A DNA stretch of 54,137 nucleotides from a virus. The notes beneath the pieces are model-generated. The model was not told the DNA's origin and did no database searches. It was given only the letters and a program-made list of their open reading frames with translations. The translations under genes and the position numbers were made by a program. Of this stretch, positions 1,562-53,779 are shown piece after piece. The DNA lies in IMG/VR virus record IMGVR_UViG_3300021400_000023; one strand, 5' to 3'. Position 1 is the stretch's first letter; the number at the start of each line of letters is the position of its first letter.

Positions 1562-1577
1562 GGTGTTGGCCTCCTTG

Positions 1578-8524: not shown

Positions 8525-8526
8525 GA

Positions 8527-8739: not shown

Positions 8740-8760
8740 GCTGTTATCCTCCTCTCTTTT

Positions 8761-8777
8761 CTTCGGAATCTCCGAAG
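8761..8777. promoter_or_regulatory. Operator-like palindrome CTTCGGAATCTCCGAAG
   Basis: Perfect 7-bp arms lie just downstream of the leftward -10. A related site TTCAGAATTTCCGAAG is at 8824-8839. Confidence 0.55.
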
Positions 8778-8786
8778 TGTAGATAC

Positions 8787-8815
8787 ATTATAATTCGGCG
8801 TCGCCGTATTGTCAA
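8787..8815 (-). promoter_or_regulatory. Leftward early promoter (TTGACA-17-TATAAT)
   Basis: The reverse complement reads ttgaca (8815-8810), a 17-nt spacer, then tataat (8792-8787). Confidence 0.65.
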
Positions 8816-8823
8816 CAGAAAAA

Positions 8824-8839
8824 TTCAGAATTTCCGAAG
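8824..8839. promoter_or_regulatory. Second operator-like site TTCAGAATTTCCGAAG
   Basis: It is related to the 8761-8777 palindrome and lies between the two divergent -35 boxes. Confidence 0.45.
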
Positions 8840-8846
8840 TTTTTTA

Positions 8847-8875
8847 TTGCAAAGGGCCTCCCGATACGATATAAT
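8847..8875 (+). promoter_or_regulatory. Rightward repressor promoter (TTGCAA-17-TATAAT)
   Basis: ttgcaa at 8847-8852, a 17-nt spacer, then tataat at 8870-8875, upstream of the GTG at 8905. Confidence 0.6.
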
Positions 8876-8904
8876 CAAAGAGAACAACGCAAGGAGGCGA
8901 TTTT

Positions 8905-9276
8905 GTGGGAGAAATAAGAAAGACCGTAGGAGAGAATATTAAGAAGGTCTGCCAACTAAAGGGAATACGACAGGTTGATATATCGGAGCACATGAAGGTG
9001 TCGCAGGGCACCGTTTCTAACTGGTTCAAGGGTACGAACTCAATAGATATTGAAAACCTCGCCGAATTGTGCTCTTTCCTCGGCGTTTCATTGGATCAGA
9101 TTTTCGGCGTGGCCCCGCTGACGCCAGAAGTTACATTGTCACAGGAAGAAACCGACCTTTTGAGCATGTTCCGTGCTTTGAACAGCCAGGGGAAGGATAT
9201 GCTCATGAGCACAGCCCGCGCTTTTGCTGGCAATCCTGATATGCAAAAAGAAAGTACGAAGTCAAAGATGGCGTGA
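8905..9276 (+). CDS. XRE-family HTH repressor (CI-like, no peptidase domain)
   Basis: GTG start follows AAGGAGG. The HTH is LKGIRQVDISEHMKVSQGTVSNWFKG. At 123 aa there is no room for an S24 domain. Confidence 0.8.
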   Translation: MGEIRKTVGENIKKVCQLKGIRQVDISEHMKVSQGTVSNWFKGTNSIDIENLAELCSFLGVSLDQIFGVAPLTPEVTLSQEETDLLSMFRALNSQGKDMLMSTARAFAGNPDMQKESTKSKMA

Positions 9277-9892: not shown

Positions 9893-10004
9893 AAATGCCC
9901 GCCCCGGTTTCCCAGGACGGGCCGCAAAATCAGCCAACACCACTTGTCCGATTTGCTATTTCATTATAGCGCGGCGAGGGTTATTTGTCAAGGAGCGAAA
10001 ACGC

Positions 10005-11621
10005 ATGAAAACCGTTAAAACCCAAAGCGGCGCGACGAAAGCGGTAATCTATGCCCGCTATTCGTCCCACGGCCAGACGGAGCAATCCATAGAGGGCCAG
10101 TTGCATGATAACTACGCCTGGGCGAAACAGCAAGGGATCACCGTCATAGGCGAATATATAGACCGCGCCCTGACAGGTACAAAGGACGCCCGCCCGGACT
10201 TCCAGCGAATGATTGAGGACGCGGCCAAGCGTCAGTTTGAAATGGTGATCGTCTGGAAGCTGGACAGGTTCGCCCGCAATCGCTACGACAGCGCCATCTA
10301 CAAGGCCCGTCTGAAAAAGTACGGCGTCAAGGTCGTGTCCGTAAAAGAGAACATCACCGACAGCCCGGAAGGAATTATCCTGGAAGGGCTGCTGGAGAGC
10401 ATGGCGGAATACTACTCGGCCAATCTTTCGCAGAACGTCAAGCGCGGACTGCGCGAGAGCGTGGAAAAGGGGTATTACTGCGGCGGCAGCATCCCATACG
10501 GCTACAAGGCGGAAAACCACCGCCTTGTCCCGGACGAGAAAACCGCGCCCATCATCCGCTATGTGTTTGAGGAGTACGCCAAGGGCACGTCCAAGAAGGA
10601 GATCATCGACGAGCTGAACCGGCGCGGCGTGCGCAACGGGAAGGGAAACCCGCTGACATATACATCCTTCCAGCACGCCCTACGCATGACCACCTATATA
10701 GGGGAGTATGTCTATCAGGGAAAGGTCGTGCCCTGCGCCGATCCTCTGGTGACGCGGGAAGTGTTTGACAAGGTGCAGGCCCGCCTTGACCGGCGCGCTC
10801 ATGCTCCCGCCGCTGCCAAGGCCCGCGTCCCGTATCTGCTACAAGGGAAAGCCTGGTGCGGCCTGTGCGGCGCGCCCATGTTTGGGGAAAGCGGTACGTC
10901 GCACACCGGCGCGCTCCACACCTATTACTGCTGCTACAATCGGAAACGGAAAAAGGGATGCAAGAAGAAAACCGAGCGCCGCGATAAGCTGGAAACCTTC
11001 ATCGTCGCCCGGACGATGGATTATATCTTGACGCCATCCCGTATGAACAGGATAGCAAAGGCCGTCGTGCAGGAGTATAACAAGGAGTTCTCCGGCTCCC
11101 GCGTGGAGGATATGGAAAAGGCCATCGCACAGATAGACCGGGAAATGGACAAGCTGGTGGACGCCCTAATTGACGCGCCCAAGGCCGCGCACAAGAAAAT
11201 CTATGCCCGCATGGAAACGCTGGAAGTGCAGAAAGCGGAGTTTGAAACCGACGCGGCCAAGCTGCGCGTCGCTATGGGCCTCCGCCTGACGGAAAAGGAA
11301 GTCGTGTCCTGGCTAAAGACCTTCCGCGACGGCGATCCCGACGATCCCGATTTCCGCCGCCGTCTGGTGGACATCTTCATCAATGCTGTGTACGTCTACG
11401 ACGACAGGATCATAGTCTTTTATAACATCCGGGGAGGCAAACAGGTGTCGAGCAAAGACCTGTACGAAGCCCTGGAAAGCCCGAAAGATAAAGAAAATTC
11501 CAAACCCGAAACAGGTTCGGATTTGGAATCATCTGGCGGGGCGGGTAATTCTAAATCCGAACCCGAATTTGTATTTGTGCATGGCGTCTTTGGGTGCATT
11601 TTCCCATGGGGCGAGGGATGA
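10005..11621 (+). CDS. Large serine recombinase (integrase)
   Basis: Resolvase-type N-terminus AVIYARYSSHGQ...DRFARN, a recombinase domain, a Cys-rich zinc ribbon (CGLCGAPM...YYCCYNRKRKKGC) and a coiled-coil tail. 538 aa. Confidence 0.92.
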   Translation: MKTVKTQSGATKAVIYARYSSHGQTEQSIEGQLHDNYAWAKQQGITVIGEYIDRALTGTKDARPDFQRMIEDAAKRQFEMVIVWKLDRFARNRYDSAIYKARLKKYGVKVVSVKENITDSPEGIILEGLLESMAEYYSANLSQNVKRGLRESVEKGYYCGGSIPYGYKAENHRLVPDEKTAPIIRYVFEEYAKGTSKKEIIDELNRRGVRNGKGNPLTYTSFQHALRMTTYIGEYVYQGKVVPCADPLVTREVFDKVQARLDRRAHAPAAAKARVPYLLQGKAWCGLCGAPMFGESGTSHTGALHTYYCCYNRKRKKGCKKKTERRDKLETFIVARTMDYILTPSRMNRIAKAVVQEYNKEFSGSRVEDMEKAIAQIDREMDKLVDALIDAPKAAHKKIYARMETLEVQKAEFETDAAKLRVAMGLRLTEKEVVSWLKTFRDGDPDDPDFRRRLVDIFINAVYVYDDRIIVFYNIRGGKQVSSKDLYEALESPKDKENSKPETGSDLESSGGAGNSKSEPEFVFVHGVFGCIFPWGEG

Positions 11622-11691: not shown

Positions 11692-11820
11692 CACGTTTCT
11701 AATTATCCGCGCGCGCACGCGCGAGGGGCCGTTTGGGGCCGTCCAGGTGAATGAAATTCATAAAAAAATTAAAAAAATTAGCGAAATGGTGGGCTCCCAG
11801 CGCCCGCGAGAGAGGAAAAT

Positions 11821-12780
11821 GACGCGCGCAGTACCTACACGCGGAAGCGGGCGCGCGCGTACACGCGCGGGCGGGCGAGCGCGCGGCGCGACGCGAGCGC
11901 AGGGGCGCGGGGGCGCGCGGGGGCACGCGGCGCGTGACGCAGGGGCGCAGGGGTGCGCGGATGCGTAGCGCGCTGGCGTTGCGCGTTGCGCGGTAAAAGC
12001 AACCCCGTAGGGGTTGCATCCTGGGGCGCGTAGCGCCCGCGCGATGGCGCGGGGCGTGGCGCGGGGGCCGCGCGTCCAGGGGTGCGGCGCAGCGGGGCGC
12101 GGATCGCGGGCGGGGCCATGGGCGGCCATGGGCGCGGCGCGGGCCGTCGGGGCAATTCGGCAGCAGGCCGCCGGGGATCGCCGCCGGGGCCGGGGCCGTC
12201 TGGACGTGTCCAGGATCGCCGCCGGATGGATCGCCCGCCGGGACGGTTGACAGCTCCGGCGACGTGTCCAGGCGGCAGGCAGCCCCTCGCACGCGCGCCC
12301 GCATGGGCGGCCGGGGTGGCGTGTCCAGGATCGCCGCCGGGGATCGCGGCAGGCAGCAGGGGGCAGCACGCGCGCGGGCATGGGCGGCCATGGGCGCGGC
12401 AGGGGCCGCCGGGGATCGCCGCCCGCAAAGGGGCAGCATGTTTTTATTTCATTCGGCCTTGATTGTTTCCGCCGGGGATCGCGGGCGGCGTGTCCAGGGG
12501 CAGCAGGCCGCCGGGGATCGCCGCCGGGGCTGGGGCCGTGTCCAGGGGCAGCAGGCCGCCGGGGATCGCCGCCGGGGCCGTGGACGTGTCCAGGGCAGCG
12601 GGCCGCCGGATGGATCGCGGCAGGCAGCAGGGGCCGCCCGCGTCCAGGGGGCCGGATTATTTCAGCAGGGGCAGCAGGCCGCCGGGGCCGTGTCCATTTC
12701 GACGGGCGGCAGGGGCGCGGCGCGCATGGGCAGCGCGGGCAGGATCGCGCTCACGCATATACGCGGGAACATAAAACGCG
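11821..12780. repeat. Hyper-GC non-coding region with degenerate 46-47-bp repeats
   Basis: Recurrent words are gccgccggggatcgc, gtgtccagg, ggcagcagg and catgggcggccatgggcgcggc. All six frames are open with Arg/Gly/Pro/Ala-rich translations and no RBS. Confidence 0.8.
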
Positions 12781-12834
12781 CGTGCGCCCGTTGCCCCTCA
12801 AAAAAATTTTTTTATTCCCCGTAGGGGAATACCT

Positions 12835-12875
12835 GGCCCGAAAAACAGGGGTGTTTCCGCACGGGCCGTTTTTTT
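12835..12875 (+). terminator. Intrinsic terminator at the right edge of the GC-rich block
   Basis: GGCCCG ... CGGGCC stem is followed by a T7 run. Confidence 0.55.
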
Positions 12876-12968
12876 GTGCTATGCTTTTCACGTCGCAAGG
12901 CAAGCGGCCCGCCGGGGACGGCGGCAAGCCCCCGAAAAAATTTCCCGAAAAAAATTTTTGAAAAGGGC

Positions 12969-13021
12969 TTGACAAACGGGGTACACCGTGATAACATGGG
13001 CACCGTGGACGGGGTACACCG
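12969..13021 (+). promoter_or_regulatory. Island promoter cassette P1 (TTGACA-17-TAACAT) with two ACGGGGTACACCG repeats
   Basis: ttgaca at 12969-12974 and -10 at 12992-12997. The repeats are at 12976-12988 and 13009-13021. An A/T tract lies upstream. Confidence 0.7.
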
Positions 13022-13054
13022 AACACAAACGACAAACGACAGGAGGCCAACACC

Positions 13055-13327
13055 ATGACAACGATTAGCCGCGAACAATTCCGGGTGCTTGAAGGGATCG
13101 CATATTGGCGGGCGGAAATCGCCTGGACGGTTGAAAGATACGGGGCCGACGACGTGGATTTGCCAAAATTCCGCGCAACCCTTGAAAGCCTGCTTGACGA
13201 AGCGGATCGAAAGTCGATCCCGTGGGCGGTACAGAATAACGTGCTTGTGTTCGCTGAAAATTGGCGGGCCGAAAAAAGCCGCTATTTGGATTGCGTGCTG
13301 CTTGAAAAGGGCGTCAAGGTTGCGTAA
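13055..13327 (+). CDS. Hypothetical protein (first island gene)
   Basis: ATG is preceded by AGGAGGCCAACACC. 90 aa. Confidence 0.65.
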   Translation: MTTISREQFRVLEGIAYWRAEIAWTVERYGADDVDLPKFRATLESLLDEADRKSIPWAVQNNVLVFAENWRAEKSRYLDCVLLEKGVKVA

Positions 13328-13424
13328 AGTCGAAACGCGGCGGGGCCGCGTCCGCCGGGGATCGCCTCCCGGCGCTGATGATGGCAGGCGAACACAACAC
13401 CGAATTTTTAAGGAGGCCAACACC

Positions 13425-14321
13425 ATGAAGGATCTGTATTCTGAAATCACCAACGGTATTATTGAACAGCTGGAGCAGGGCGTTATCCCGTGGAAAAAGC
13501 CCTGGACGGGCGTCAATTCCGGCGCTATCAGTCACGCAACGGGCCGCGCGTATAGCCTGCTGAATCAGATGTTGCTTGCCCGCCCCGGTGAATATATCAC
13601 CTTCAATCAGTGCAAGCAGGAGGGCGGCAAGGTCAAGAAGGGCGCGAAGTCAAAAATTGTCGTGTTCTGGAAGGTGCTGCCCCGTGAAAAGAAGGACGCC
13701 GACGGAAACATTATCACCAACGCCGACGGCAAGCCGATCATTGAAGGGCTGCCCGTGCTCCGTTACTTCCAGGTGTTTCATATCGACGATTGTGAAGGGA
13801 TCGCCCCGAAATGGGAAAACAAGCTGCCCGCCGTCGCAAGCCCCGACGAACGCGCCGAAAATGTTTTGATGGATTATGTACGCCGGGAAAACATTCGTCT
13901 TGAAAACGTGATAGGCGACAGGGCGTATTATTCCCCCTCCCGTGACCTTATCCGGCTGCCGATCATGGAGCAATTCGACAGCACCGCCGAATATTACGGC
14001 ACCGCGTACCATGAAGCAACCCATAGCACCGGCCACGCAACGCGGCTAAACCGTTTCACCGGGGACGCTGCCGCCGCCGCTTTCGGCTCCGAATCGTACA
14101 GCAAAGAGGAGCTTGTCGCGGAAATCGGCTCCGCCTGCTGCCTGCATGAATTGGGCCTTGAAACGCCGTCCAGCTTCAAAAACTCCGCCGCCTATATTCA
14201 GTCCTGGCTCCGCGTTTTGAAGGACGACAAGCGAATGATTATCAGCGCCGCCGCCCGCGCCGAAAAGGCCGTCAAGCTGATTTTCAACATCACCGACAGC
14301 AAGCAGGCGGACGGGGAATAA
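13425..14321 (+). CDS. ardC: ArdC-like antirestriction protein (ssDNA-binding N-domain plus HExxH metalloprotease-like C-domain)
   Basis: ATG at 13425 follows AAGGAGGCCAACACC. Motifs are IPWKKPW, ...RYFQVFH... and YHEATHSTGH. Confidence 0.8.
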   Translation: MKDLYSEITNGIIEQLEQGVIPWKKPWTGVNSGAISHATGRAYSLLNQMLLARPGEYITFNQCKQEGGKVKKGAKSKIVVFWKVLPREKKDADGNIITNADGKPIIEGLPVLRYFQVFHIDDCEGIAPKWENKLPAVASPDERAENVLMDYVRRENIRLENVIGDRAYYSPSRDLIRLPIMEQFDSTAEYYGTAYHEATHSTGHATRLNRFTGDAAAAAFGSESYSKEELVAEIGSACCLHELGLETPSSFKNSAAYIQSWLRVLKDDKRMIISAAARAEKAVKLIFNITDSKQADGE

Positions 14322-14370
14322 TCCCCGCCCCCTGCAACGCCCCGAAATCATTTTGAAGGAGGCCAACACC

Positions 14371-14601
14371 ATGAAAAAGCTGCTTGCAATCGTCGCCGCC
14401 CTGGCTCTTGTCGCCGCTGCATCATTCGCCGCCGGACGGGCCGCCGGTATTCGGCACGCGATAGAGGACGCCGAAATATACACGGTTGAATGTTACGATC
14501 CCGACAACCCCGACGAAAACGCCCGCCCCGACGGCACCGATCAAACAATCTATATCGAGCTGGACGGGGAAATATACGAGCACGGCATGTATCAGGGGTG
14601 A
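14371..14601 (+). CDS. Small membrane or secreted protein
   Basis: ATG follows AAGGAGGCCAACACC. Hydrophobic N-terminus KKLLAIVAALALVAAASFAA. Confidence 0.65.
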   Translation: MKKLLAIVAALALVAAASFAAGRAAGIRHAIEDAEIYTVECYDPDNPDENARPDGTDQTIYIELDGEIYEHGMYQG

Positions 14602-14683
14602 ACGCCCCGAAATCATTCCGCCCGACGATGGCCCGCCGGTTACGGGCCGAAACGATCCCGCCGGGATCGTCGCGGAAAACCGC
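14601..14683 (+). repeat. Double-hairpin intergenic element, copy 1
   Basis: aacgccccgaaatcattccgcccgacgatGGCCCGccggttaCGGGCCgaaaCGATCCCgccGGGATCGtcgcggaaaaccgc. Near-identical copies are at 15413-15487 and 18243-18323. Confidence 0.85.
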
Positions 14684-14707
14684 CGAAAAAAATTTTCGGA
14701 AAAGGGG

Positions 14708-14760
14708 TTGACAAACGGGGTACACCGTGTTACAATCCCAAACGTGGACGGGGTACACCG
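14708..14760 (+). promoter_or_regulatory. Island promoter cassette P2 (TTGACA-17-TACAAT) with two ACGGGGTACACCG repeats
   Basis: ttgaca at 14708-14713 and tacaat at 14731-14736. The repeats are at 14715-14727 and 14748-14760. Confidence 0.75.
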
Positions 14761-14800
14761 AACACAACGCCGCAAAAACATTTTGAAGGAGGCCAACACC

Positions 14801-15406
14801 ATGAAAACCGTTTTCACCTTTACCGCCGACAGCATCACCGTCAAGGGCAAGACTTTCCCCGCTGAATACTCCGTTACCCCGTCCGGCTCCGTGTTCGTGT
14901 TCGTCCAGGAGGACGGCAAGCAGGAAAAAACCCGTATTCGCTTCAACCCCGATCATGCCGAATACGCCGCCGCCCTGGCCGCCGCCCGCAATGAGCAGCC
15001 CGCCCCCGCTGCCGATGAACGCCCCGAAATCATTCCCGCCGCCGATCCGGCCCCCGCCGCCGTGGAAGAAACGCCCGCCGCCCCCGCCGCCGATCCGGCC
15101 CCCGCTGCCGATCCTGTCCCCGTCGCCGACGGGAAAGCGACGCGCGGCCCCGTCCCGGAAAAGACCTTCATCGGTGAAAGCATCACCGGCAACGGCTGGA
15201 AAATCCTTTTCGACGGCGAAACGAGCCGCACGCGGATTATCTTTGAAAGCAAGCCCACGGACGCCGCCCGCGCCGCCCTGGACAAGGCCGGTTTCTTCTT
15301 CTCCTCCGCTATGAATAGCTGGAATAAGAAATTGACCTTCAAGGCATACCGCGCCGCGCAAGCCCTGGCCGGTGAATTGTCCGCCCTGTCCCCCGCCGCC
15401 GCTTGA
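14801..15406 (+). CDS. Hypothetical two-domain protein with Pro/Ala linker
   Basis: ATG follows AAGGAGGCCAACACC. The linker ERPEIIPAADPAPA... is encoded by a copy of the intergenic junction sequence. Confidence 0.65.
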   Translation: MKTVFTFTADSITVKGKTFPAEYSVTPSGSVFVFVQEDGKQEKTRIRFNPDHAEYAAALAAARNEQPAPAADERPEIIPAADPAPAAVEETPAAPAADPAPAADPVPVADGKATRGPVPEKTFIGESITGNGWKILFDGETSRTRIIFESKPTDAARAALDKAGFFFSSAMNSWNKKLTFKAYRAAQALAGELSALSPAAA

Positions 15407-15412
15407 CGGCGC

Positions 15413-15487
15413 GGGAACATTCCGCCCGATGATGGCCCGCCGGTTACGGGCCGAAACGATCCCGCCGGGATCGTCGCGGAAAACCGC
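15413..15487 (+). repeat. Double-hairpin intergenic element, copy 2
   Basis: Near-identical to 14601-14683. Confidence 0.85.
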
Positions 15488-15522
15488 AACGCCACGAAAT
15501 CATTTTGAAGGAGGCCAACACC

Positions 15523-16422
15523 ATGAAATACACCGAGAAAACCGCCGCCGCCGTGCTCAATTCCCTGCTCCGCGCCGCGCGGAAAACGCCCCGCGAAAGC
15601 CTGCACGACGCCTGGACGGATGAACAGGGCCGGACTTGTGCAATGGATGGATACCGCGCCTATTGTCTGAACGCCGCCCCCGCCGGGATGAAAGTAACCT
15701 GGACGAGCCGCCCCGATCCGGCCCGCGCTGCCGCCCGCGCCGCTGATAATAATAAAATCCTGGCCCACGTTTTCAATGCCCTGGACGCCGGGAAAACGGT
15801 TGAAATGCCTGCCCCGGACGCGGACGCCGTGAAATCATTCATGGCCGCCGACAAGGAGCAGGGCGGGCGCGGGGTGTATGACCTGGGGAAAGACTTTCCC
15901 GCTGTGAATGTCAAGTATTTGTGGGATATAATCAGGCTTTTCCCGGTTGCGAAATGGTATGTTCTGGCCGATCCCTACGCCCGCATGGTTAGCCCCATTT
16001 TCATCGTCGCCGACGAGGGCCGCGCCTGCCTGCTGCCGATCCGGCAGGATAGCAAGCCCTGGAAAGCCCCGGAAGCGCCCGCCCCGGCCCCTGCTGAAAA
16101 GCCCGACGCCGATGAACGCCCCGAAAACATTCCCGCCGATGAAAACCCCTGGAAGTGTGACTATTTTGTGTACTCCCGCCCCGCCGGTGAAAAGCGTTTC
16201 CTGTTGACAAATCTCCGCGAGGGCACCGTGGGCATGAAAAAGTTTTACGCCCCGATGTACAAGGAAAAGCACCTGGAGCAAATCAAGGAAATGCTTGACC
16301 TTGCCGCCGCTGAAAACCCCGGCGCGGTTTTCCAGCTCCGCAAGCTGGACGGGAAAAAGGTTGTATATACCGCCGTCCCGACGGTTACGCCGGAAATGTT
16401 CGCCGCAAGGATCGCCGCTTGA
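15523..16422 (+). CDS. Hypothetical protein; weak sliding-clamp (DnaN)-like motifs
   Basis: ATG follows AAGGAGGCCAACACC. AMDGYRAY and CLLPIR are reminiscent of clamp motifs, a resemblance that is weak and unverified. Confidence 0.6.
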   Translation: MKYTEKTAAAVLNSLLRAARKTPRESLHDAWTDEQGRTCAMDGYRAYCLNAAPAGMKVTWTSRPDPARAAARAADNNKILAHVFNALDAGKTVEMPAPDADAVKSFMAADKEQGGRGVYDLGKDFPAVNVKYLWDIIRLFPVAKWYVLADPYARMVSPIFIVADEGRACLLPIRQDSKPWKAPEAPAPAPAEKPDADERPENIPADENPWKCDYFVYSRPAGEKRFLLTNLREGTVGMKKFYAPMYKEKHLEQIKEMLDLAAAENPGAVFQLRKLDGKKVVYTAVPTVTPEMFAARIAA

Positions 16423-16432
16423 TTATTCCATC

Positions 16433-16459
16433 CGCCCGCCCGTGGGCATTGTACGCGGG
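16433..16459 (+). repeat. Hairpin abutting an RBS (gcccgcccgtgggcatWtacgcgggc), copy 1
   Basis: The same 26-27-nt hairpin recurs at 19202-19227. Both lie immediately 5' of a GGAGG RBS. Confidence 0.75.
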
Positions 16460-16475
16460 CAAGGAGGCCGCCCCG

Positions 16476-16892
16476 ATGAAGTATTATTATTTATATATCC
16501 CCGCTTTGGTTTTCTTCCTGCTGCCCCTGCTCAATGGCCTGCGTGCTTCCGTCGCGGCCCGCGCTGCCGCCCGCGAGAAGGAAGCGAAGCGCGCCGCCGC
16601 TGCCGCCGTGAAGGAGGCCGCCGAACAGGAGAAGAAAGCCCGCCAGGAGGCCCGCGCCGCTGCTGCTGCCGATCCGGCCCAGGAGCCGAAGCGCAAGCGC
16701 GGACGCCCGCGCAAGAATCCCATGCCGGAGCAACGCCACGAAATCATTTTGCCAGAGGAAACGCCCGCCGCCGTCCAGGAGGAGCCGCCCGCCGTCCAGA
16801 TTATGACGATCCAGCGCGCGAGCATCTTCCCGAACGTTGACAAGATGGAGCCGCCCTGCACCCCGGAAGAATTTGCGAAAAAATTTTGCTGA
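16476..16892 (+). CDS. Membrane-anchored protein with AT-hook-like KRKRGRPRK
   Basis: ATG follows AAGGAGG. The N-terminal hydrophobic segment is YLYIPALVFFLLPLL. Confidence 0.6.
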   Translation: MKYYYLYIPALVFFLLPLLNGLRASVAARAAAREKEAKRAAAAAVKEAAEQEKKARQEARAAAAADPAQEPKRKRGRPRKNPMPEQRHEIILPEETPAAVQEEPPAVQIMTIQRASIFPNVDKMEPPCTPEEFAKKFC

Positions 16893-16912
16893 AAAAAATT
16901 TGCGAAAAGGGG

Positions 16913-16965
16913 TTGACAAACGGGGTACACCGTGTTACAATCCCAAACGTGGACGGGGTACACCG
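16913..16965 (+). promoter_or_regulatory. Island promoter cassette P3 (TTGACA-17-TACAAT) with two ACGGGGTACACCG repeats
   Basis: ttgaca at 16913-16918 and tacaat at 16936-16941. The repeats are at 16920-16932 and 16953-16965. Confidence 0.75.
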
Positions 16966-17005
16966 AACACAACACCGCGAAATCATTTTGAAAGGAGCCA
17001 ACACC

Positions 17006-17548
17006 ATGAGCCGCTATTATCTTGACATCATCAACGCAGAGGAAACGGAGAACGCCCGCAAGAAAGCCGCTGCCGCCATTTCCGGGGATCGCCGCCGCGC
17101 TGCTATAAAGCGCATTGTCGCCGAAAAGCTAAAGGGCCAGTACATCACGAAGCGCATTGAGCCGAGTATGTTAGCCATGTTCCCCGGCGCTGTTCGCTGC
17201 TATATGAGCCAGTCTTATGACCACGTTGATTTGACCGTAACTTATAGCGCAACCAATTACAACAACCGTGAAACGATCATCCTTTGCCAGACCGACAACC
17301 GCCACATTGATGCGGAAAAGCTGATTCAGTCAGCCGAGCAGAACGAACGAGAGGCCGCCGCCCTGGAAGCAACCTTGCAGCATATTGAGGGGCTTGTCGC
17401 TGCCTACAATGGAATTGCTGAACAGTACGCCGCTATTCATAGCGATATGAACAAGCTCTTTGACGAAATCCCCTATGCGGATTATAGCCTTGAACGTAAA
17501 TTGCAGGGGATCACCCCGGAAAAGTTCGCCGAAACCATCCCGGCATAA
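17006..17548 (+). CDS. Hypothetical protein
   Basis: ATG follows AAAGGAGCCAACACC. 180 aa. Confidence 0.65.
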   Translation: MSRYYLDIINAEETENARKKAAAAISGDRRRAAIKRIVAEKLKGQYITKRIEPSMLAMFPGAVRCYMSQSYDHVDLTVTYSATNYNNRETIILCQTDNRHIDAEKLIQSAEQNEREAAALEATLQHIEGLVAAYNGIAEQYAAIHSDMNKLFDEIPYADYSLERKLQGITPEKFAETIPA

Positions 17549-17581
17549 CGCCGCAAAAACATTTTGAAGGAGGCCAACACC

Positions 17582-18244
17582 ATGAAAACCACCATCAACG
17601 CCATGTGCCCCGATTGCACCCGGTTCGGGAAGGATTGCCAGGGGACGAGCTGCCAGACCTGGACGGGCTGCATTTACAAGCAGCGCGCCGACGCCGACAA
17701 GACGATCTGCAAGCCGAAGCTGATTTATCAGCCGGACGCGCCCGAAGATGCCCGCTACAATGTCCAGTTGTGGTATAGCTATGACGGCGGCAAGACCTTC
17801 TATTATGCCGGTTATGGCCGCTTCTTCAAGGACTTCTACGAGGCGGAAGCGTGGCGGAAGCAGCAGCGCAAAAACCTGTCCTACGATCTCATGTTTGGCC
17901 GCCTGGGCAACGGGACAACGGTTTGCAACATGGCCCGCGAGGAGCACGGCGACTATCCCACCATCGCCCACATTGACGATTGCGGCGCGGTTCGCTGGTA
18001 TGTCGATGCAAAGAAGCTCCCGCCCTACGTCCTGGAGGACGTAAACGCCGCCGCGCTGCGGGATATGGCGGAGTTCAAGGAAAAGTTTTTGAAGCTCACC
18101 CCGCTGGAAGCCCTGCGCGCCGTGTATGATACCTTCCCCATGAACACGATCCGGAACGACGTAAGCAAAGAGACCGTCCCGGTGCTGTATGAAATCTATA
18201 CAGAGTTCATGGCCCAGCATGGCTACATGATGCCGGAACAATAA
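17582..18244 (+). CDS. Hypothetical Cys-rich N-terminus protein
   Basis: ATG follows AAGGAGGCCAACACC. 220 aa. Confidence 0.65.
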   Translation: MKTTINAMCPDCTRFGKDCQGTSCQTWTGCIYKQRADADKTICKPKLIYQPDAPEDARYNVQLWYSYDGGKTFYYAGYGRFFKDFYEAEAWRKQQRKNLSYDLMFGRLGNGTTVCNMAREEHGDYPTIAHIDDCGAVRWYVDAKKLPPYVLEDVNAAALRDMAEFKEKFLKLTPLEALRAVYDTFPMNTIRNDVSKETVPVLYEIYTEFMAQHGYMMPEQ

Positions 18245-18323
18245 CGCCGCGAAATCATTCCGCCCGATGATGGCCCGCCGGTTACGGGCCGAAACGATCC
18301 CGCCGGGATCGTCGCGGAAAACC
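18243..18323 (+). repeat. Double-hairpin intergenic element, copy 3
   Basis: Near-identical to 14601-14683. Confidence 0.85.
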
Positions 18324-18358
18324 AACGCCGCAAGATTATTTTCAAGGAGGCCAACACC

Positions 18359-18838
18359 ATGACCGTCAACAAAACCCGCTATTCCAGCTATAACTACAAG
18401 CGCCTTGCGCCCTTCCTGGAGGCCGTGCGCGAGCTGCCGGAACAGTCCTTCACTTTCACGCGCGAGGGCTACGAGCCGCTTTCCATCGAGAACCTGGAGT
18501 ACACTTTCAAGGGCTACCCCGTTTGGGGCATGATGCACACCTACAACATGAACGGCGACACCATGCGCGACCCGGACATGACCTTCCTTGTGGACTTCTC
18601 AACCGGCAACATCATCCCGCACACCTTCCAGCAGGATAATTGCCCCTTCACGCAGTATGGCACCCTGTATCAGGAGGTTTGGGAGGATGAAGGGCATTGG
18701 CGGCCCAGCCTGCGCGCCCAGCTTGACCGCTTCTTGAAAGACTGGATCACAAACATTCTGGAGCAAGGTTTTAAGCCGGAGCAGGCCAGGGAAAACGAAG
18801 TCACCCCGGAACAGTTTGCCGAAGCTGTCACCGAATAA
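18359..18838 (+). CDS. Hypothetical protein; motif H-x-Y-x-x-NGD-x-M-x-DP-x-M recalled from conjugative-element or polyvalent proteins
   Basis: ATG follows AAGGAGGCCAACACC. The motif appears as MMHTYNMNGDTMRDPDMTF. The family assignment is from memory only. Confidence 0.6.
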   Translation: MTVNKTRYSSYNYKRLAPFLEAVRELPEQSFTFTREGYEPLSIENLEYTFKGYPVWGMMHTYNMNGDTMRDPDMTFLVDFSTGNIIPHTFQQDNCPFTQYGTLYQEVWEDEGHWRPSLRAQLDRFLKDWITNILEQGFKPEQARENEVTPEQFAEAVTE

Positions 18839-18871
18839 CGCCGCGAAATCATTTTGAAAGGAGCGCTGAAC

Positions 18872-19192
18872 ATGACATACGAGGAGCTTTTAGAGATCAC
18901 CGCCGAGAAAAAGCGCGCTGCGGTTGCCCAGCTCAACAAGGCCCTGCAAGGCCCCGGCGGTTTCCTGGTAAAGGCCGAGATCGAGCGCAAGCCCGGAAGC
19001 GTCGCCTGGTTGTGGCTTGCGAAGGAGTTTTGTGAAACCCTGGCCCAGCACGTCGAGGAGTTTATGCAGCAGACCGGCGACGTGGATAGCCTGGAGGCCC
19101 GCGAGATCGGCGCTATCTATATGGCCTATGAGGACGACGACCCCGACCTGTACGAATTGCTCCCGCTGGAAGCACAACTATTCGCTGAATGA
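18872..19192 (+). CDS. Hypothetical acidic protein
   Basis: ATG follows AAAGGAG. 106 aa. Confidence 0.6.
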   Translation: MTYEELLEITAEKKRAAVAQLNKALQGPGGFLVKAEIERKPGSVAWLWLAKEFCETLAQHVEEFMQQTGDVDSLEAREIGAIYMAYEDDDPDLYELLPLEAQLFAE

Positions 19193-19201
19193 TGATAATA
19201 A

Positions 19202-19227
19202 GCCCGCCCGTGGGCATATACGCGGGC
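19202..19227 (+). repeat. Hairpin abutting an RBS, copy 2
   Basis: gcccgcccgtgggcatatacgcgggc lies directly before agaaGGAGG. Confidence 0.75.
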
Positions 19228-19242
19228 AGAAGGAGGTACATC

Positions 19243-19488
19243 ATGAAAAGCATCACATTCAAGACCAACGTCGCCGCAACCGGCGCGGCATCCGCCGAGA
19301 TCGTGAACGAGCTACCGGAGCTCGGCGACACCTTCCACGGGCACATTGTCCTGGAAGTAAGCCCCTTCCCCCTGGTGGACGAGCAGGACGATCCCGAAGT
19401 GTATCAATTCGCCGTCTGGAAGCTGCACCTGTCCGGCAACGTCTATAACTACGTTGCGATCCACGAAGCCGACGCCGAGAAAATCTAA
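19243..19488 (+). CDS. Hypothetical protein
   Basis: ATG follows GAAGGAGG. 81 aa. Confidence 0.6.
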   Translation: MKSITFKTNVAATGAASAEIVNELPELGDTFHGHIVLEVSPFPLVDEQDDPEVYQFAVWKLHLSGNVYNYVAIHEADAEKI

Positions 19489-19521
19489 CGCCGCGAAATC
19501 ATTTTGAAAGGAGCCAACACC

Positions 19522-19725
19522 ATGAAAGCCAACACCACCATTGCGAAGATTGCCCATTCCATCCGCCGCTTCTTTGTCGGCGAAGCGTACACCGTCGCCG
19601 CGTGCCTGCCCGGTTACGGCACGTTCACCTGTACCATCAAGGCCCCGAACCGGCAGCGCGCCATGCAGGAAGCGGAAGCGATGGCCGATCCCGGTTTTGT
19701 CCTGTCCTGCGAGCTGGCCGCCTGA
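19522..19725 (+). CDS. Hypothetical protein
   Basis: ATG follows AAAGGAGCCAACACC. 67 aa. Confidence 0.6.
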   Translation: MKANTTIAKIAHSIRRFFVGEAYTVAACLPGYGTFTCTIKAPNRQRAMQEAEAMADPGFVLSCELAA

Positions 19726-19742
19726 TCCCGTCGGGCCGCGCG

Positions 19743-19771
19743 TTGACAAACGGGGTACACTAATTTATAAT
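19743..19771 (+). promoter_or_regulatory. Island promoter cassette P4 (TTGACA-17-TATAAT) with one ACGGGGTACAC repeat
   Basis: ttgaca at 19743-19748 and tataat at 19766-19771. The repeat is at 19750-19760. Confidence 0.7.
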
Positions 19772-19797
19772 ATAGGCATCGAAAGGAGGCCGACACC

Positions 19798-20004
19798 ATG
19801 CCGAGAGGAAACACACCCGAACAGCGACGCGCAAAGAATATTCTTGGCGAGAAGTGGGACAAGGAAAACACCCGTCAAGTCAAGTTCAAGTTCAACATTC
19901 GCACAGACGCGGACATTATCGCCCATCTGGAAGCCCAGCAGAACATCCAGGGCTATGTGAAGCGTCTGATCCGGGACGACATCGCCCGCAGCAGCAAAGG
20001 CTAA
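19798..20004 (+). CDS. Ribbon-helix-helix-like small DNA-binding protein (candidate island regulator)
   Basis: The pattern is a beta strand (RQVKFKFNI), helix (DADIIAHLEA), then helix (IQGYVKRLIRDDI). ATG follows AAAGGAGGCCGACACC. Confidence 0.5.
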   Translation: MPRGNTPEQRRAKNILGEKWDKENTRQVKFKFNIRTDADIIAHLEAQQNIQGYVKRLIRDDIARSSKG

Positions 20005-20274
20005 AGCGTCACGATCATTCTAACGTGCATCTTTCCCGAAAAGGTGCGCGTTATTTTTATACCCCAGGAGGCCCCGCGCGCTCACTCCCGGCTTTGTCAT
20101 AATAGGAGGTTGTGTTAAACGCATACGGAGGAAATCGCTTCCTATTTTATGCGCTAAAAAATAGGCCGGTTTTGGATGTTGTGTTTTACCATGCCCCGAT
20201 ATGACAAACACAAGCCCCACGGCCTGGAAATGGGCATAAAAAGAGCGCCCCCGGATCGCTCCGAGGGCTGTTCT

Positions 20275-20496
20275 TCACTTCCTGCCTTGCTTCTGCCTGT
20301 ACCGTTTGATCGCCATAGCGCGCTTCATTCCGTGTGTGGCGGCCTCTTTCAGCGCCCTTTCCTCCGCCCGCTCCTTCCTCCGCTTCTCGCACCAGGCGGC
20401 AAAGCGGGCGTACCGCTCGCAATCTGCGTGACACGTTGCCGATCTTTCCGGGCAATCCTTTACGCATGGATTGTCCACCACGTCGCCCCTGCTCAT
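20275..20496 (-). CDS. Small Cys-rich protein
   Basis: The ATG at 20496 forms an ATGA overlap with the recombinase stop. The sequence contains CVKDCPERSATCHADC. Confidence 0.5.
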   Translation of the reverse strand: MSRGDVVDNPCVKDCPERSATCHADCERYARFAAWCEKRRKERAEERALKEAATHGMKRAMAIKRYRQKQGRK

Positions 20497-21101
20497 GCCC
20501 GCGCCCGCTTTCCCGTCAGCATGTTCAGCTTCATAAGGCTTTCGTCGATATTCTCCTGGATCACGCCGATGTAAACGAGCGTTTCCCGTTGGTAGCTGTG
20601 GCACAATATCCTTTGCAAGCTCACCACGTCGCCGGTCATTTTGTAATAGTGATAGCCGAAGGTCTTTCGCAGCGTATGGCACCCGATCCGCTCCTCTACG
20701 CCCGCCTCGCGGGCTATGTGGTTGATGATCTGATAGCACCGCTGCCGCGATATGGGCCGGTATTTGTGGGTAGCGCTGTCCTTCTGGCGGCTCTGGAGGA
20801 TATACTCGTCCGCCTTTCTTCCGGCCAGCAGACGGTTGATCTCCCGCCGCGCTTGGGGGTTTATCAGTATGCGGGCTTCCTTCCCGGTTTTCTTGGCCTG
20901 TATCTGCGCGTAGTCCTTGCCCCTCAAATCCTGCACCTTGAACCGCCGGAAGTCACTCACGCGCAGGCTGGTATTAAAGCCAATCAGCAAGATCAATTCC
21001 CAGCACACTTCCCCCGTTTTCCTGTGCTTGTCGTGCTCCCGCGCAATGTCGTAACACTTTTGCAATACATCCAGATCGCGGATGGGCTGCACAACCTTCA
21101 T
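20493..21101 (-). CDS. Short stand-alone tyrosine recombinase (catalytic domain only, 202 aa)
   Basis: Candidate catalytic residues are LRVSD (Arg), CHTLRKT (His-x-x-Arg) and HSYQRETLVYIG (His...Tyr). Confidence 0.7.
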   Translation of the reverse strand: MKVVQPIRDLDVLQKCYDIAREHDKHRKTGEVCWELILLIGFNTSLRVSDFRRFKVQDLRGKDYAQIQAKKTGKEARILINPQARREINRLLAGRKADEYILQSRQKDSATHKYRPISRQRCYQIINHIAREAGVEERIGCHTLRKTFGYHYYKMTGDVVSLQRILCHSYQRETLVYIGVIQENIDESLMKLNMLTGKRARA

Positions 21102-25476: not shown

Positions 25477-25505
25477 AAAGAACGCATGGATTCAGACCGT
25501 CCAAA

Positions 25506-25928: not shown

Positions 25929-25964
25929 ATCATTCTCTCCGTCCGGCGGATATTATTTTCCCCA

Positions 25965-53763: not shown

Positions 53764-53779
53764 AGCGGTGTTGGCCTCC

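What the first reader, a model, noticed from the sequence alone, without database searches (positions are those of the whole stretch)
12935..20004. Plus-strand island of about 13 small genes driven by four near-identical consensus promoter cassettes
Between the integrase and the lysis genes, on the strand opposite to nearly all other genes, sit 13 ORFs. Only one has a recognisable function (ArdC-like antirestriction, 13425-14321). Others have membrane anchors, an AT-hook, or motifs I recall only from conjugative-element or polyvalent proteins. Transcription signals are duplicated almost verbatim. An A/T tract plus TTGACA, exactly 17 nt, then TACAAT, TAACAT or TATAAT occurs at 12969, 14708, 16913 and 19743. 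ArdC together with many unknown small genes and strong repeated promoters resembles the anti-defence leading regions of conjugative plasmids. Here that layout is embedded in a temperate phage at the moron position. I propose it is an early-expressed anti-defence or host-takeover island, but the functions are unknown.
Basis: partly seen in the sequence, partly recalled or inferred. Interest (0 to 1): 0.75.

Follow-up and report, generated by a model that had tools for sequence, protein, structure and literature searches.

The report
Ribozyme-punctuated phage accessory gene cassettes
A temperate phage of rumen Clostridia carries a 7-kb array of 13 small accessory genes, one of them an ArdC-type anti-restriction gene, assembled from repeated standard parts (consensus promoters sharing an operator, four hammerhead self-cleaving ribozymes, a common ribosome-binding leader), and close relatives show genes swapped, lost, reordered and fused at these parts.

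Summary
In detail: there are 13 plus-strand genes and four TTGACA-N17-TAnnAT promoters, against 0.01 expected by chance. (1) There are four hammerhead ribozymes. A type II copy at 13328-13393 scores 50.8 bits in Rfam (threshold 37). Three 71-nt type I copies lie at 14612, 15416 and 18254. Their fold shows compensatory changes across relatives, but in this lineage the core reads CCGAYGA (U4C) instead of CUGANGA. (2) A 14-bp near-palindrome, ACGGGGTACACCGT, occurs twice in each of P1-P3 and once, degenerate, in P4. (3) A ~36-nt stop-to-start leader precedes most genes. Relatives from about 14 rumen contigs, 97-99% identical in shared genes, differ by whole-gene swaps, indels and one reordering bounded by these parts. 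Copies of the junction motif inside g4, g5 and g6 mark in-frame gene fusions. Only ArdC is a firm functional assignment. The g5 N-domain has a beta-clamp-like fold. Best reading: a hyperplastic accessory array of repressor-controlled, ribozyme-insulated expression cassettes, probably transcribed as an early burst with an anti-restriction or takeover role. Clustered prophage hammerheads and recombining regulatory cassettes (PeSLs) are both known, so this is a new variant, not a new kind.

The parts
12859..12889 (+). terminator-like hairpin plus T-run just upstream of P1; would shield the island from upstream transcription
12931..13025 (+). Promoter cassette P1: A/T tract, -35 TTGACA 12969-12974, operator O1 ACGGGGTACACCGT 12976-12989 in the spacer, TG-extended -10 TAACAT 12992-12997, operator O2 13009-13021
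13055..13327 (+). g1 (90 aa), no family; replaced by an unrelated 84-aa gene in L021, L010 and L008
13328..13393 (+). Type II hammerhead ribozyme starting right after the g1 stop codon; predicted cleavage after C13352 (GUC|C)
   Evidence: Rfam RF02276 50.8 bits against a gathering score of 37, E 3e-8 to 3e-10; conserved in L021, L005 and L004
13425..14321 (+). g2, ArdC-like: ArdcN ssDNA-binding domain plus zincin metallopeptidase with HEATH motif
   Evidence: motif read
14371..14601 (+). g3 (76 aa), N-terminal hydrophobic anchor or signal, no family
14612..14682 (+). Type I hammerhead copy a (core CCGACGA, U4C); predicted cleavage after C14671
   Evidence: (D5)
14683..14765 (+). Promoter cassette P2: -35 14708, O1 14715-14728, -10 TACAAT 14731-14736, O2 14748-14760; the whole cassette is absent in L010 and L008
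14801..15406 (+). g4 (201 aa): N-domain, then fossil junction 15018-15034 (DERPEIIP) with a Pro/Ala linker, then a C-domain that exists alone as 84-88-aa proteins
   Evidence: (D7, D13)
15416..15486 (+). Type I hammerhead copy b (CCGAUGA); predicted cleavage after C15475
15523..16422 (+). g5 (299 aa): beta-clamp-like N-domain (1-186), disordered linker 187-210 containing fossil junction 16115-16131 (DERPENIP), small C-domain (211-299)
16434..16467 (+). conserved hairpin GCCCGC-N15-GCGGGC abutting the SD of g6
16476..16892 (+). g6 (138 aa): TM helix, Ala/Lys/Glu-rich stretch, AT-hook KRKRGRPRK, fossil junction 16732-16748 (EQRHEIILP), 45-aa tail
   Evidence: (L004 homology stops at aa 91)
16886..16970 (+). 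Promoter cassette P3: -35 16913, O1 16920-16933, -10 TACAAT 16936-16941, O2 16953-16965
17006..17548 (+). g7 (180 aa), no family; absent from L021, L007, L006 and L009
17582..18244 (+). g8 (220 aa), Cys-rich N-terminus, no family; exchanged in position with g4 in L009
18254..18324 (+). Type I hammerhead copy c (CCGAUGA); predicted cleavage after C18313
18359..18838 (+). g9 (159 aa), DUF6908
   Evidence: 9.2e-25
18872..19192 (+). g10 (106 aa), no family; replaced by an unrelated 125-aa gene in most relatives
19202..19236 (+). second copy of the hairpin-plus-SD leader, before g11
19243..19488 (+). g11 (81 aa), no family; a divergent allele (31-38% identity) in most relatives
19522..19725 (+). 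g12 (67 aa), no family, conserved
19743..19771 (+). Promoter P4 (TTGACA-17-TATAAT, 12/12 match) with one degenerate operator (ACGGGGTACACTA) and no A/T tract or O2
19798..20004 (+). g13 (68 aa), the most conserved island gene; candidate repressor for the operators (inferred, not shown)
20021..20060 (+). only plus-strand terminator-like site after P1; closes the island

Best explanation
The island is a hyperplastic accessory-gene array of a temperate phage of rumen Clostridia, built from four kinds of standard part. (1) Strong host-type promoters: A/T tract, TTGACA, a 17-bp spacer and a TG-extended -10. Each of P1-P3 carries two copies of a 14-bp near-palindromic operator, one in the spacer and one just downstream of the -10 hexamer. 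(2) Hammerhead ribozymes, one type II and three type I, placed directly after g1, g3, g4 and g8. (3) A ~36-nt stop-to-start leader, TAACGCCGCGAAATCATTTTGAAGGAGGCCAACACCATG, that gives most genes the same ribosome-binding context. (4) A terminator-like site at each end and none inside.

Inferred mechanism. When naive phage DNA enters a cell, host RNA polymerase fires P1-P3. Transcripts read through the whole array because nothing terminates them. The ribozymes cut them into defined units (g1 | g2-g3 | g4 | g5-g8 | g9 onward). After cleavage each downstream unit starts with a 5'-OH and a standard leader, and each upstream unit ends in ribozyme stems. Expression of any cargo gene therefore does not depend on its neighbours. 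A dedicated repressor then binds the operators and shuts P1-P3 down, giving a transient burst. The best candidate is g13, which has its own promoter P4 with a weakened operator. The payload includes an ArdC-type anti-restriction protein and is most likely an early anti-restriction or host-takeover set.

Because the parts are repeated, homologous recombination between them swaps, deletes, inserts and reorders whole genes. The junction and leader sequence is also the point at which neighbouring genes have been fused in frame (g4, g5, g6).

Shown here: the parts and their excess over chance, the ribozyme fold and its covariation, cargo shuffling at cassette edges, and the fusions. Inferred: promoter activity, cleavage in vivo, the identity of the repressor, expression timing and payload function.
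For: Promoters. Operator: the exact 13-mer ACGGGGTACACCG occurs six times in the window, only in P1-P3, plus one 2-mismatch copy in P4. At up to 2 mismatches the pattern gave 12 hits against 1.1 expected. The operator is conserved in the distant relatives L022, L004 and L023, whose flanks differ.

Ribozymes: Rfam Hammerhead_II scores 50.8 bits against a threshold of 37. The type I fold over 14 distinct copies is 98.9% paired, with 6 pairs changed on both sides; 0 of 500 shuffles reached this and slid controls fell to 30-49% paired. Relatives carry canonical CUGA(U/A/C)GA cores. A covariance model finds exactly three full copies in the window. No plus-strand terminator-like site lies between 12889 and 20021.

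Leader and junction: 14 and 15 matches against 0.2 and 0.04 expected.

Shuffling, with shared genes at 97-100% amino-acid identity: g1 is swapped in L021, L010 and L008. g7 is present or absent. g10 and g11 are swapped. P2 is absent in L010 and L008. g4 and g8 have exchanged places in L009. The breakpoints fall at 13058/13327, 14683/14765, 17009/17544 and 18864.

Fusions: the junction motif lies inside g4, g5 and g6. In the g5 model, two folded domains are joined by a linker with pLDDT below 50 at exactly that site. Stand-alone versions exist of the g5 N-domain (P0022, 181 aa; BFVD 163-aa protein, TM 0.79), of the g5 C-domain (phrog_35407; 69-aa BFVD protein) and of the g4 C-domain (P0104 and P0105). 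In L005 a different N-domain is joined to the g4 C-domain through the same ERPEII motif.

Payload: ArdC. Precedents: hammerheads clustered around genes in prophages near integrases, including around ardA (PMC3088659), and strong promoters under tight negative feedback giving a burst of ardC after transfer of R388 (PMC3937220).
Against: All three type I copies here carry U4C, a change reported to lower activity considerably in vitro (PMC3088659), so cleavage at three of the four sites may be slow or absent. Rfam's own models do not recognise the type I copies, not even canonical-core relatives.

g13 has no Pfam hit and no Foldseek PDB hit. Its link to the operator is therefore only positional and by co-occurrence.

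Only one payload gene has a firm function. The beta-clamp-like fold of g5 and the primase-like hit of g4 point as much to DNA metabolism as to anti-defence. The island shares its strand with the CI-like repressor and the integrase, and it sits at the prophage end. That layout is typical of genes expressed in lysogens.

Breakpoints between relatives will tend to map to conserved segments by construction, so their position at cassettes is weaker evidence for mechanism than it looks.
Confidence: 0.6

Rival explanations
1. The array is a set of lysogenic-conversion genes (morons) expressed from the resident prophage for the benefit of the host, for example superinfection exclusion or membrane functions, and not an early anti-defence burst.
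For: It shares its strand with the CI-like repressor, a secreted protein and the integrase. In the integrated relative L023 the island lies at the very left end of the prophage, next to the host tRNA gene. It has autonomous sigma-70-type promoters and terminator-like sites at both ends. g3 and g6 have membrane anchors. Cargo turnover is high, as is typical of morons.
Against: The promoters carry operators, which implies repression rather than constitutive expression. ArdC-type proteins act on incoming DNA (PMC7213743, listed). No toxin, exclusion or surface-modification family was detected.
Confidence: 0.2
2. The island is an auxiliary DNA-replication or repair module (clamp-like protein, ssDNA binder, primase-associated domain) that complements the replication genes on the other strand.
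For: The top 50 Foldseek PDB hits of the g5 model are all DnaN beta clamps (E about 2e-3, probability 0.99). BFVD hits include 'PolIII beta-like processivity factor'. The g4 C-domain matches the C-terminus of a 'primase' PHROG (1.6e-6). ArdcN is an ssDNA-binding domain.
Against: A replication module already lies on the minus strand: a G39P-like loader, DUF1064 and others. The clamp similarity is weak in TM-score (0.3) and covers a truncated fold. Gene content varies among 97-99% identical phages, which is unlike essential replication genes. No polymerase, helicase or primase catalytic domain was found.
Confidence: 0.12
3. The cassettes are moved by site-specific recombination, as in an integron or shufflon, catalysed by the small tyrosine recombinase encoded next to the island (20493-21101, minus strand). 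The junction motif or the ribozyme DNA would serve as the recombination site.
For: A 202-aa Phage_integrase-family protein (Pfam 3.6e-20; PHROG integrase 2.4e-44) sits directly beside the array and is conserved there in L023 and L024, although the phage already has a serine integrase. A 17-nt junction motif recurs at 12 or more gene and domain boundaries. One protein in the database reads into an inverted promoter cassette (P0011).
Against: Breakpoints fall at several different positions: the ATG, the stop codon, the ribozyme edge and promoter edges. They do not share one core site. The flanking repeats of 40-118 nt at 90-100% identity are long enough for homologous recombination. No attC-like imperfect palindrome follows each gene. 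There are several internal promoters, not one Pc.
Confidence: 0.07
4. The three type I hammerhead copies are dead relics (U4C) that persist only as repeated DNA or as plain stem-loops. RNA processing plays no part at those sites, and only the promoters and leaders matter.
For: All copies in this lineage have C at core position 4. U4C is reported to lower activity considerably in vitro (PMC3088659). Rfam models do not detect them.
Against: The stems remain fully paired in about 20 copies across about 10 phages, including changes that keep pairing only through G-U (L007). That argues for selection at the RNA level. The same paper notes that a U4C hammerhead keeps enough activity in vivo for viroid infectivity. 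A phage that carries two C4 copies also carries a canonical U4 copy (L018 and L012). All other core positions are intact.
Confidence: 0.3

Closest known systems
Clustered hammerhead ribozymes in prophages (Perreault et al. 2011, PMC3088659)
   Same: Several hammerheads of different types flank single genes or short gene blocks in a prophage, close to an integrase. An anti-restriction gene lies directly downstream of a hammerhead (ardA there, an ArdC-like gene here). Pseudoknot-type tertiary contacts and natural core variants occur in both.
   Different: Here the ribozymes are one component of a composite repeated cassette that also includes a promoter, an operator and a leader. Comparison of near-identical phages shows cargo exchange at the cassettes. 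All three type I copies carry U4C. Junction sequence adjoining a ribozyme has been absorbed into coding sequence as a linker.
PeSL mobile regulatory cassettes of T4-type phages (Arbiol et al. 2010, PMC2839356; Comeau et al. 2014, PMC4122927)
   Same: [quoted passage not shown] Insertions, deletions and replacements between close relatives are bounded by the cassettes.
   Different: The PeSL stem-loop is a transcription terminator. Here the structured element is a self-cleaving ribozyme with no U-tract. These promoters carry an operator. The phage is a temperate Clostridia phage, not a virulent T4-like myovirus. Mini-circles were not tested.
ArdK-repressed maintenance/establishment regulon of plasmid R388 (Fernandez-Lopez et al. 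2014, PMC3937220; ArdC: PMC7213743)
   Same: An ardC-type gene and small genes of unknown function are expressed from several strong promoters that share a repressor site. Negative feedback is predicted, and in R388 shown, to give a burst on entry into a naive cell.
   Different: This element is a phage, not a conjugative plasmid, with no oriT or ssDNA entry. The repressor is not identified. R388 has no ribozymes.
Polyvalent proteins of phages and conjugative elements (Iyer et al. 2017; cited from memory, not read here)
   Same: They share domains: ArdcN and MPTase-PolyVal, DUF3849 in a relative, and a weak fold match of g5 to a 'large polyvalent protein-associated domain' protein. The domains are joined by low-complexity linkers.
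   Different: Here the domains are mostly separate small genes. Only two- or three-module fusions occur, and there is no giant protein.
RiboJ-type synthetic ribozyme insulators (Lou et al. 2012; cited from memory)
   Same: A hammerhead placed upstream of a standard RBS trims the 5' UTR, so that expression does not depend on upstream context.
   Different: RiboJ is an engineered part. Insulation by the natural elements here is inferred, not measured.

Membership tests
Hammerhead ribozyme, type II (Rfam RF02276) | Covariance-model score at or above the curated gathering score | tested here: met
   50.8 bits against 37, full-length match 1-66/66 at 13328-13393
Hammerhead ribozyme, type II (Rfam RF02276) | Conserved core CUGAUGA ... 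GAAA and a cleavage triplet NUH | tested here: met
   CUGAUGA, CGAAAC and GUC|C are all present in the alignment
Hammerhead ribozyme, type II (Rfam RF02276) | Self-cleavage activity | not testable with these tools
   needs an in vitro transcription and cleavage assay
Hammerhead ribozyme, type I (the 71-nt repeat) | Core C3-U4-G5-A6-N7-G8-A9 | tested here: not met
   The window copies read CCGA(C/U)GA, with C at position 4. Relatives L004, L005, L012, L022 and L023 read CUGA(U/A/C)GA
Hammerhead ribozyme, type I (the 71-nt repeat) | GAAA, the A15.1-U16.1 closing pair and H17 at the cleavage site | tested here: met
   GAAAC ... GUC|G is invariant in 14 distinct copies
Hammerhead ribozyme, type I (the 71-nt repeat) | Three helices around the core, supported by covariation | tested here: met
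   20 pairs, 98.9% paired, 6 pairs with changes on both sides, 0 of 500 shuffles as high, slid controls 30-49% paired
Hammerhead ribozyme, type I (the 71-nt repeat) | Recognition by Rfam hammerhead models | tested here: not met
   No hammerhead hit at E up to 10 on the window copy. The canonical-core copy in L022 gave only a 15.8-bit partial Hammerhead_II match
ArdC anti-restriction family | N-terminal ArdcN ssDNA-binding domain | tested here: met
   PF08401, 8.6e-25, residues 2-118
ArdC anti-restriction family | C-terminal zincin metallopeptidase with HExxH | tested here: met
   PF18818, 3.6e-37; the HEATH motif is read in the translation
ArdC anti-restriction family | Alleviation of type I restriction | not testable with these tools
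   needs a plating or conjugation assay against hsdRMS hosts
PeSL-type mobile regulatory cassette | Strong sigma-70-like promoter repeated in a hyperplastic region | tested here: met
   10-12 of 12 consensus positions at four sites; promoter activity not measured
PeSL-type mobile regulatory cassette | Stem-loop that acts as a transcription terminator | tested here: not met
   No terminator-like site on the plus strand inside the island; the structured elements are hammerheads without a U-tract
PeSL-type mobile regulatory cassette | Indels and replacements between close relatives bounded by the cassettes | tested here: met
Integron / shufflon | Recombination site of fixed structure after every cassette, and a single common promoter | tested here: not met
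   Intergenic parts are heterogeneous, there are four promoters, and breakpoints fall at varied positions
Ribbon-helix-helix repressor (g13) | Sequence or fold match to an RHH family | tested here: inconclusive
   The strand-helix-helix pattern is seen by eye only. The AF2 monomer (pLDDT 85) shows a coil at 25-37 followed by two helices. There is no Pfam, PDB-sequence or Foldseek hit, and hhalign against Arc and CopG was negative
DnaN beta-clamp fold (g5 N-domain) | Structural similarity of a confident model to sliding clamps | tested here: inconclusive
   The model has pLDDT 84. All 50 top PDB hits are DnaN, but with E about 2e-3 and TM about 0.3. BFVD hits to clamp-like phage proteins reach E 1e-7 to 1e-4

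The most novel reading that the evidence does not exclude
The array is a natural plug-and-play expression platform. Self-cleaving ribozymes plus a standard leader insulate each cargo gene from its neighbours, as the synthetic RiboJ part does. Any gene recombined between two cassettes is therefore expressed at once. The same intergenic junctions, which lack stop codons in the reading frame of the flanking genes at several sites, act as seeds for in-frame gene fusion, so that junction and leader sequence is turned into protein linkers. On this reading the locus is a snapshot of how multi-domain polyvalent anti-defence proteins are assembled from single-domain genes. The spread of the U4C core would be a tuning of cleavage rate, not decay.
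Probability: 0.2. Interest if true: 0.8.

Novelty: new variant of a known kind. Interest (0 to 1): 0.6.

Why it matters
Clustered hammerheads in prophages have been known since 2011, but no biological role has been established for them. This locus, with about 14 natural variants of it, places them in a defined functional setting: between a repressor-controlled consensus promoter and a standardised ribosome-binding leader, around fast-turning-over cargo that includes an anti-restriction gene. That turns 'what are phage hammerheads for?' into concrete tests of insulation, differential stability, and C4 versus U4 kinetics. It also extends the idea of recombining regulatory cassettes from virulent T4-like phages to temperate Clostridia phages. 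Finally, it documents a simple route from adjacent small genes to fused multi-domain proteins. The cassettes themselves (promoter/operator, ribozyme, leader) could serve as ready-made parts for engineering Clostridia.

Tried and rejected
- Megablast of the island against INPHARED phages found no match, so no annotated relative was available.
- Pfam and PHROGs found no family above the curated cut-off for 10 of the 13 proteins. The RFX5 hit of g6 is below the cut-off and reflects low complexity.
- The 81-nt repeat first looked like a pair of hairpins or a terminator. Single-sequence folding was not better than shuffles (z -0.9 to -1.7), and Rfam did not recognise it. It was identified as a hammerhead by reading the core, then by canonical cores in relatives and by covariation.
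- I tested whether the GC-rich 1.2-kb stretch upstream (11700-12860) is an array of degenerate hammerheads. Neither Rfam nor the covariance model R1 finds anything there, so this is rejected.
- g13 as a ribbon-helix-helix protein: Foldseek PDB gave no hits, the profile search of PDB sequences gave only noise, and hhalign against Arc and CopG was negative. It remains a conjecture.
- CI as the operator-binding protein is unlikely. No copy of the operator (up to 2 mismatches) lies in the CI/Cro switch region 8500-9000.
- The fact that the ribozyme and leader spacers are open in frame is not in itself significant for GC-rich DNA, and I do not count it as evidence.
- ARAGORN finds no tRNA in the window, although Rfam reports one.

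Full report

Yes. Between 12935 and 20004 the plus strand holds 13 ORFs with Shine-Dalgarno sites (sequence). The pattern TTGACA-N17-TANAAT occurs five times in the 54-kb window against 0.01 expected. Three of these are at 14708, 16913 and 19743. The fourth island promoter, at 12969, has TAACAT. P1-P3 also have a TG-extended -10 and an upstream A/T tract. P4 has neither. g2 is ArdC-like: ArdcN 8.6e-25, MPTase-PolyVal 3.6e-37, and PHROG 'anti-restriction protein' 4.8e-71.

**2.

Repeat analysis showed that the promoters are only one of several repeated parts.

- *Operator.* ACGGGGTACACCGT is a 14-bp near-palindrome. It sits in the spacer of P1-P3 and again about 12 nt downstream of the -10. P4 has one degenerate copy. 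The window has no other convincing copy: 12 hits at up to 2 mismatches against 1.1 expected, and the exact copies are all in promoters. The whole cassette is conserved in distant relatives with different flanks.
- *Leader.* A stop-to-start leader, TAACGCCGCGAAATCATTTTGAAGGAGGCCAACACCATG, precedes most genes. Its 3' part gives 15 matches against 0.04 expected and its 5' 'junction' part gives 14 against 0.2.
- *Type II hammerhead.* Rfam finds one at 13328-13393, immediately after the g1 stop codon. It scores 50.8 bits against a gathering score of 37, with CUGAUGA, GAAA and GUC|C all present. The same element precedes the ArdC gene in L021, L005 and L004.
- *Type I hammerheads.* The 81-nt repeat (three copies) is a type I hammerhead. 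It has stem I UUCCGC/GCGGAA, a 7-nt core, stem II GGCCCG/CGGGCC, GAAA, stem III, and GUC|G.
  - Rfam does not detect this repeat, not even copies with a canonical core.
  - Relatives carry CUGAUGA, CUGACGA or CUGAAGA.
  - On 14 distinct copies the fold is 98.9% paired with six pairs changed on both sides. None of 500 shuffles reached this, and slid controls fell to 30-49% paired.
  - A covariance model finds exactly three full copies in the window: 14612-14682, 15416-15486 and 18254-18324.
  - In this phage and its nearest relatives every copy has C at core position 4 (CCGAYGA). According to Perreault et al., U4C lowers activity considerably in vitro but still supports viroid infectivity in vivo (PMC3088659).
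- *Second leader type.* A hairpin, GCCCGC-N14/15-GCGGGC, abuts the Shine-Dalgarno site before g6 and g11.
- *Terminators.* The only plus-strand terminator-like sites are just upstream of P1 and just after g13.

**3. Genome context**

The element is a temperate tailed phage.

- On the minus strand lie a replication/early module (G39P-like loader, DUF1064, DUF3102, DUF5131), a C5 methyltransferase, structural genes, an endolysin and a small tyrosine recombinase.
- On the plus strand lie a CI-like HTH repressor, a secreted protein, a large serine integrase, a 72%-GC non-coding stretch, and then the island.
- Related sequences come from sheep-rumen and roe-deer-omasum 'Clostridia bacterium' MAG contigs and from IMG/VR contigs of about 54 kb.
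- In an integrated relative (L023, a 91-kb contig) host genes and a tRNA gene abut sequence homologous to the last ~25 codons of the integrase gene. The GC-rich stretch, P1, a type II hammerhead and the island follow. attP therefore lies in the 3' end of int, and the island is at the prophage's left end, reading inward.

**4. Comparative evidence for cassette-mediated shuffling**

Shared genes are 97-100% identical in amino acid sequence, yet gene content and order differ.

| Difference from the window | Relatives | Breakpoints in the window |
|---|---|---|
| g1 replaced by an unrelated gene | L021, L010, L008 | 13058 (leader/ATG) and 13327 (hammerhead start) |
| P2 cassette absent | L010, L008 | 14683 / 14765 |
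| g7 absent | L021, L007, L006, L009 | 17009 / 17544, both in leaders |
| g10 and g11 replaced | most relatives | 18864 / 19449 |
| extra small genes inserted | L006, L007 | after g8 and after g13 |
| g4 and g8 exchanged between identical promoter-leader and hammerhead flanks | L009 | within the repeats |

The array has about 25 cargo families across these contigs, nearly all without annotation. Exceptions are a weak Lar-like protein in L004 (Pfam 3.5e-4, PHROG 8.5e-4, both below cut-offs), DUF3849 in L005, and a J-domain protein in L022 and L023. This is the behaviour described for PeSL cassettes in T4-type phages (PMC2839356).

**5. Gene fusions at the junction**

The junction motif also lies inside g4 (15018), g5 (16115) and g6 (16732). 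It is read in frame there as DERPEIIP, DERPENIP and EQRHEIILP.

- *g5.* The AlphaFold model has two confident domains joined by a linker of pLDDT below 50 at residues 187-210, exactly at the motif. The N-domain exists alone (P0022, 181 aa; BFVD proteins of 163-250 aa, E 5e-12 to 1e-7). So does the C-domain (62-aa phrog_35407; a 69-aa BFVD protein, TM 0.82).
- *g4.* The C-domain exists alone (P0104 of 84 aa and P0105 of 88 aa). It is also joined to other N-domains through the same ERPxII motif (L005, P0102).
- *g6.* Homology to the L004 protein stops at residue 91, which is the motif.

The junction is therefore a boundary at which both genes and domains are exchanged and fused.

**6. Protein functions**

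- Firm: g2 is ArdC-like, and g9 belongs to DUF6908 (function unknown).
- Tentative: the g5 N-domain has a DnaN beta-clamp-like fold. All top 50 PDB hits are clamps, but with E about 2e-3 and TM about 0.3. BFVD hits include phage 'PolIII beta-like' proteins and one polyvalent protein.
- Conjecture: g13 is a small repressor. It is the most conserved island gene, it has its own promoter with a weakened operator, and it co-occurs with the operator in L022's contig and in L023. It has no family or fold match.
- g5, g6, g7 and g9 end in (T/S)PExFA. These are the only four of 478 stop-to-stop ORFs in the window with this tail, and the motif persists in g5 homologues of 45% identity.

**7. Most likely mechanism**

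Host RNA polymerase starts at P1-P3 on naive DNA. Transcription reads through the array because nothing terminates it. The hammerheads cut the RNA into units with standard 5' leaders. A repressor made from the array, probably g13, then closes the promoters. The result is a transient burst, as measured for ardC and its neighbours in R388 after transfer (PMC3937220). Repetition of the parts makes the array recombinogenic and keeps newly acquired cargo expressible. Every step from promoter firing onward is inferred from sequence.

**8. Comparison with known systems and verdict**

Clustered prophage hammerheads near integrases are already known, including three around ardA in Agrobacterium tumefaciens and one upstream of ardA in Legionella (PMC3088659). 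Recombining promoter/stem-loop cassettes are known in T4-type phages. The following appear to be new:

- the union of promoter-operator, ribozyme and leader into one modular system in a temperate Clostridia phage;
- direct comparative evidence that these parts bound cargo exchange;
- the lineage-wide U4C core with intact stems;
- the conversion of junction sequence into interdomain linkers.

I rate this a new variant of a known kind with moderate-to-good interest. The anti-defence reading is plausible but rests mainly on ArdC and analogy.

Noticed in passing
window 11540-11621; L023 4000-4200: In an integrated relative, a host tRNA gene abuts sequence homologous to the last ~25 codons of the serine integrase gene. 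attP therefore appears to lie inside the 3' end of int, and integration would replace the integrase C-terminus.
   Followed up: partly
window 11700-12860: A 1.2-kb non-coding stretch of 72% GC lies between int and the island. It has variable tandem repeats (a 48-nt unit x2.7 at 12489-12618). Copy number differs in L021, and L023 has different ~100-nt repeats. No Rfam or hammerhead-model hit. Function unknown.
   Followed up: partly
window 9897-9991 (minus strand): A perfect consensus promoter (TTGACA-17-TATAAT, 9991-9963) is followed about 40 nt later by a strong terminator-like hairpin (9922-9897). This is a candidate ~60-nt small RNA between the secreted-protein gene and int.
   Followed up: no
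window 6580-6705 (minus strand): Rfam tRNA hit (50 bits) spanning 126 nt, with a 62-nt stretch where the anticodon loop should be. ARAGORN calls no tRNA. Possibly a tRNA-like element or a tRNA gene with an unusual short insertion.
   Followed up: partly
window 1559-1576, 1986-2003, 276-293, 53764-53781 (minus strand): The island's ribosome-binding leader AAGGAGGCCAACACC(ATG) also precedes small genes in the minus-strand early region. The standard leader is therefore not confined to the island.
   Followed up: no
window 16385-16422, 16850-16892, 17510-17548, 18800-18838: g5, g6, g7 and g9 all end with (T/S)PExFA plus 4-5 residues. These are the only 4 of 478 ORFs in the window with this tail, and it is conserved in distant homologues and in other cargo (L004). 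It could be a shared docking, degradation or packaging signal.
   Followed up: partly
window 20493-21101 (minus strand): A 202-aa tyrosine recombinase lies directly next to the array in a phage that already has a serine integrase. It is conserved at this position in L023 and L024. Role unknown (dimer resolution, or cassette or inversion recombination).
   Followed up: partly
L023 5964-6047 and 8441-8515: In canonical-core type I hammerheads of a relative, the UGA of the CUGAYGA core is the stop codon of the upstream gene. The coding sequence therefore overlaps stem I and the catalytic core.
   Followed up: no
L023 14362-16206; L024 7576-9420: Relatives carry a diversity-generating retroelement (RVT_1 reverse transcriptase plus bAvd) next to the tail genes. 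The corresponding window region, about 24000-26000, is homologous at 77%.
   Followed up: no
window 8527-9276: Lysogeny switch: a CI-like XRE HTH protein (8905-9276, plus strand) diverges from a Cro-like HTH protein (8527-8739, minus strand), with a consensus promoter at 8815-8787 (minus strand). Read by eye only.
   Followed up: no
protein P0011 (homologue of g5): After the g5 N-domain and junction, one database protein reads into the reverse complement of a promoter cassette. This implies an inverted cassette in that contig.
   Followed up: no
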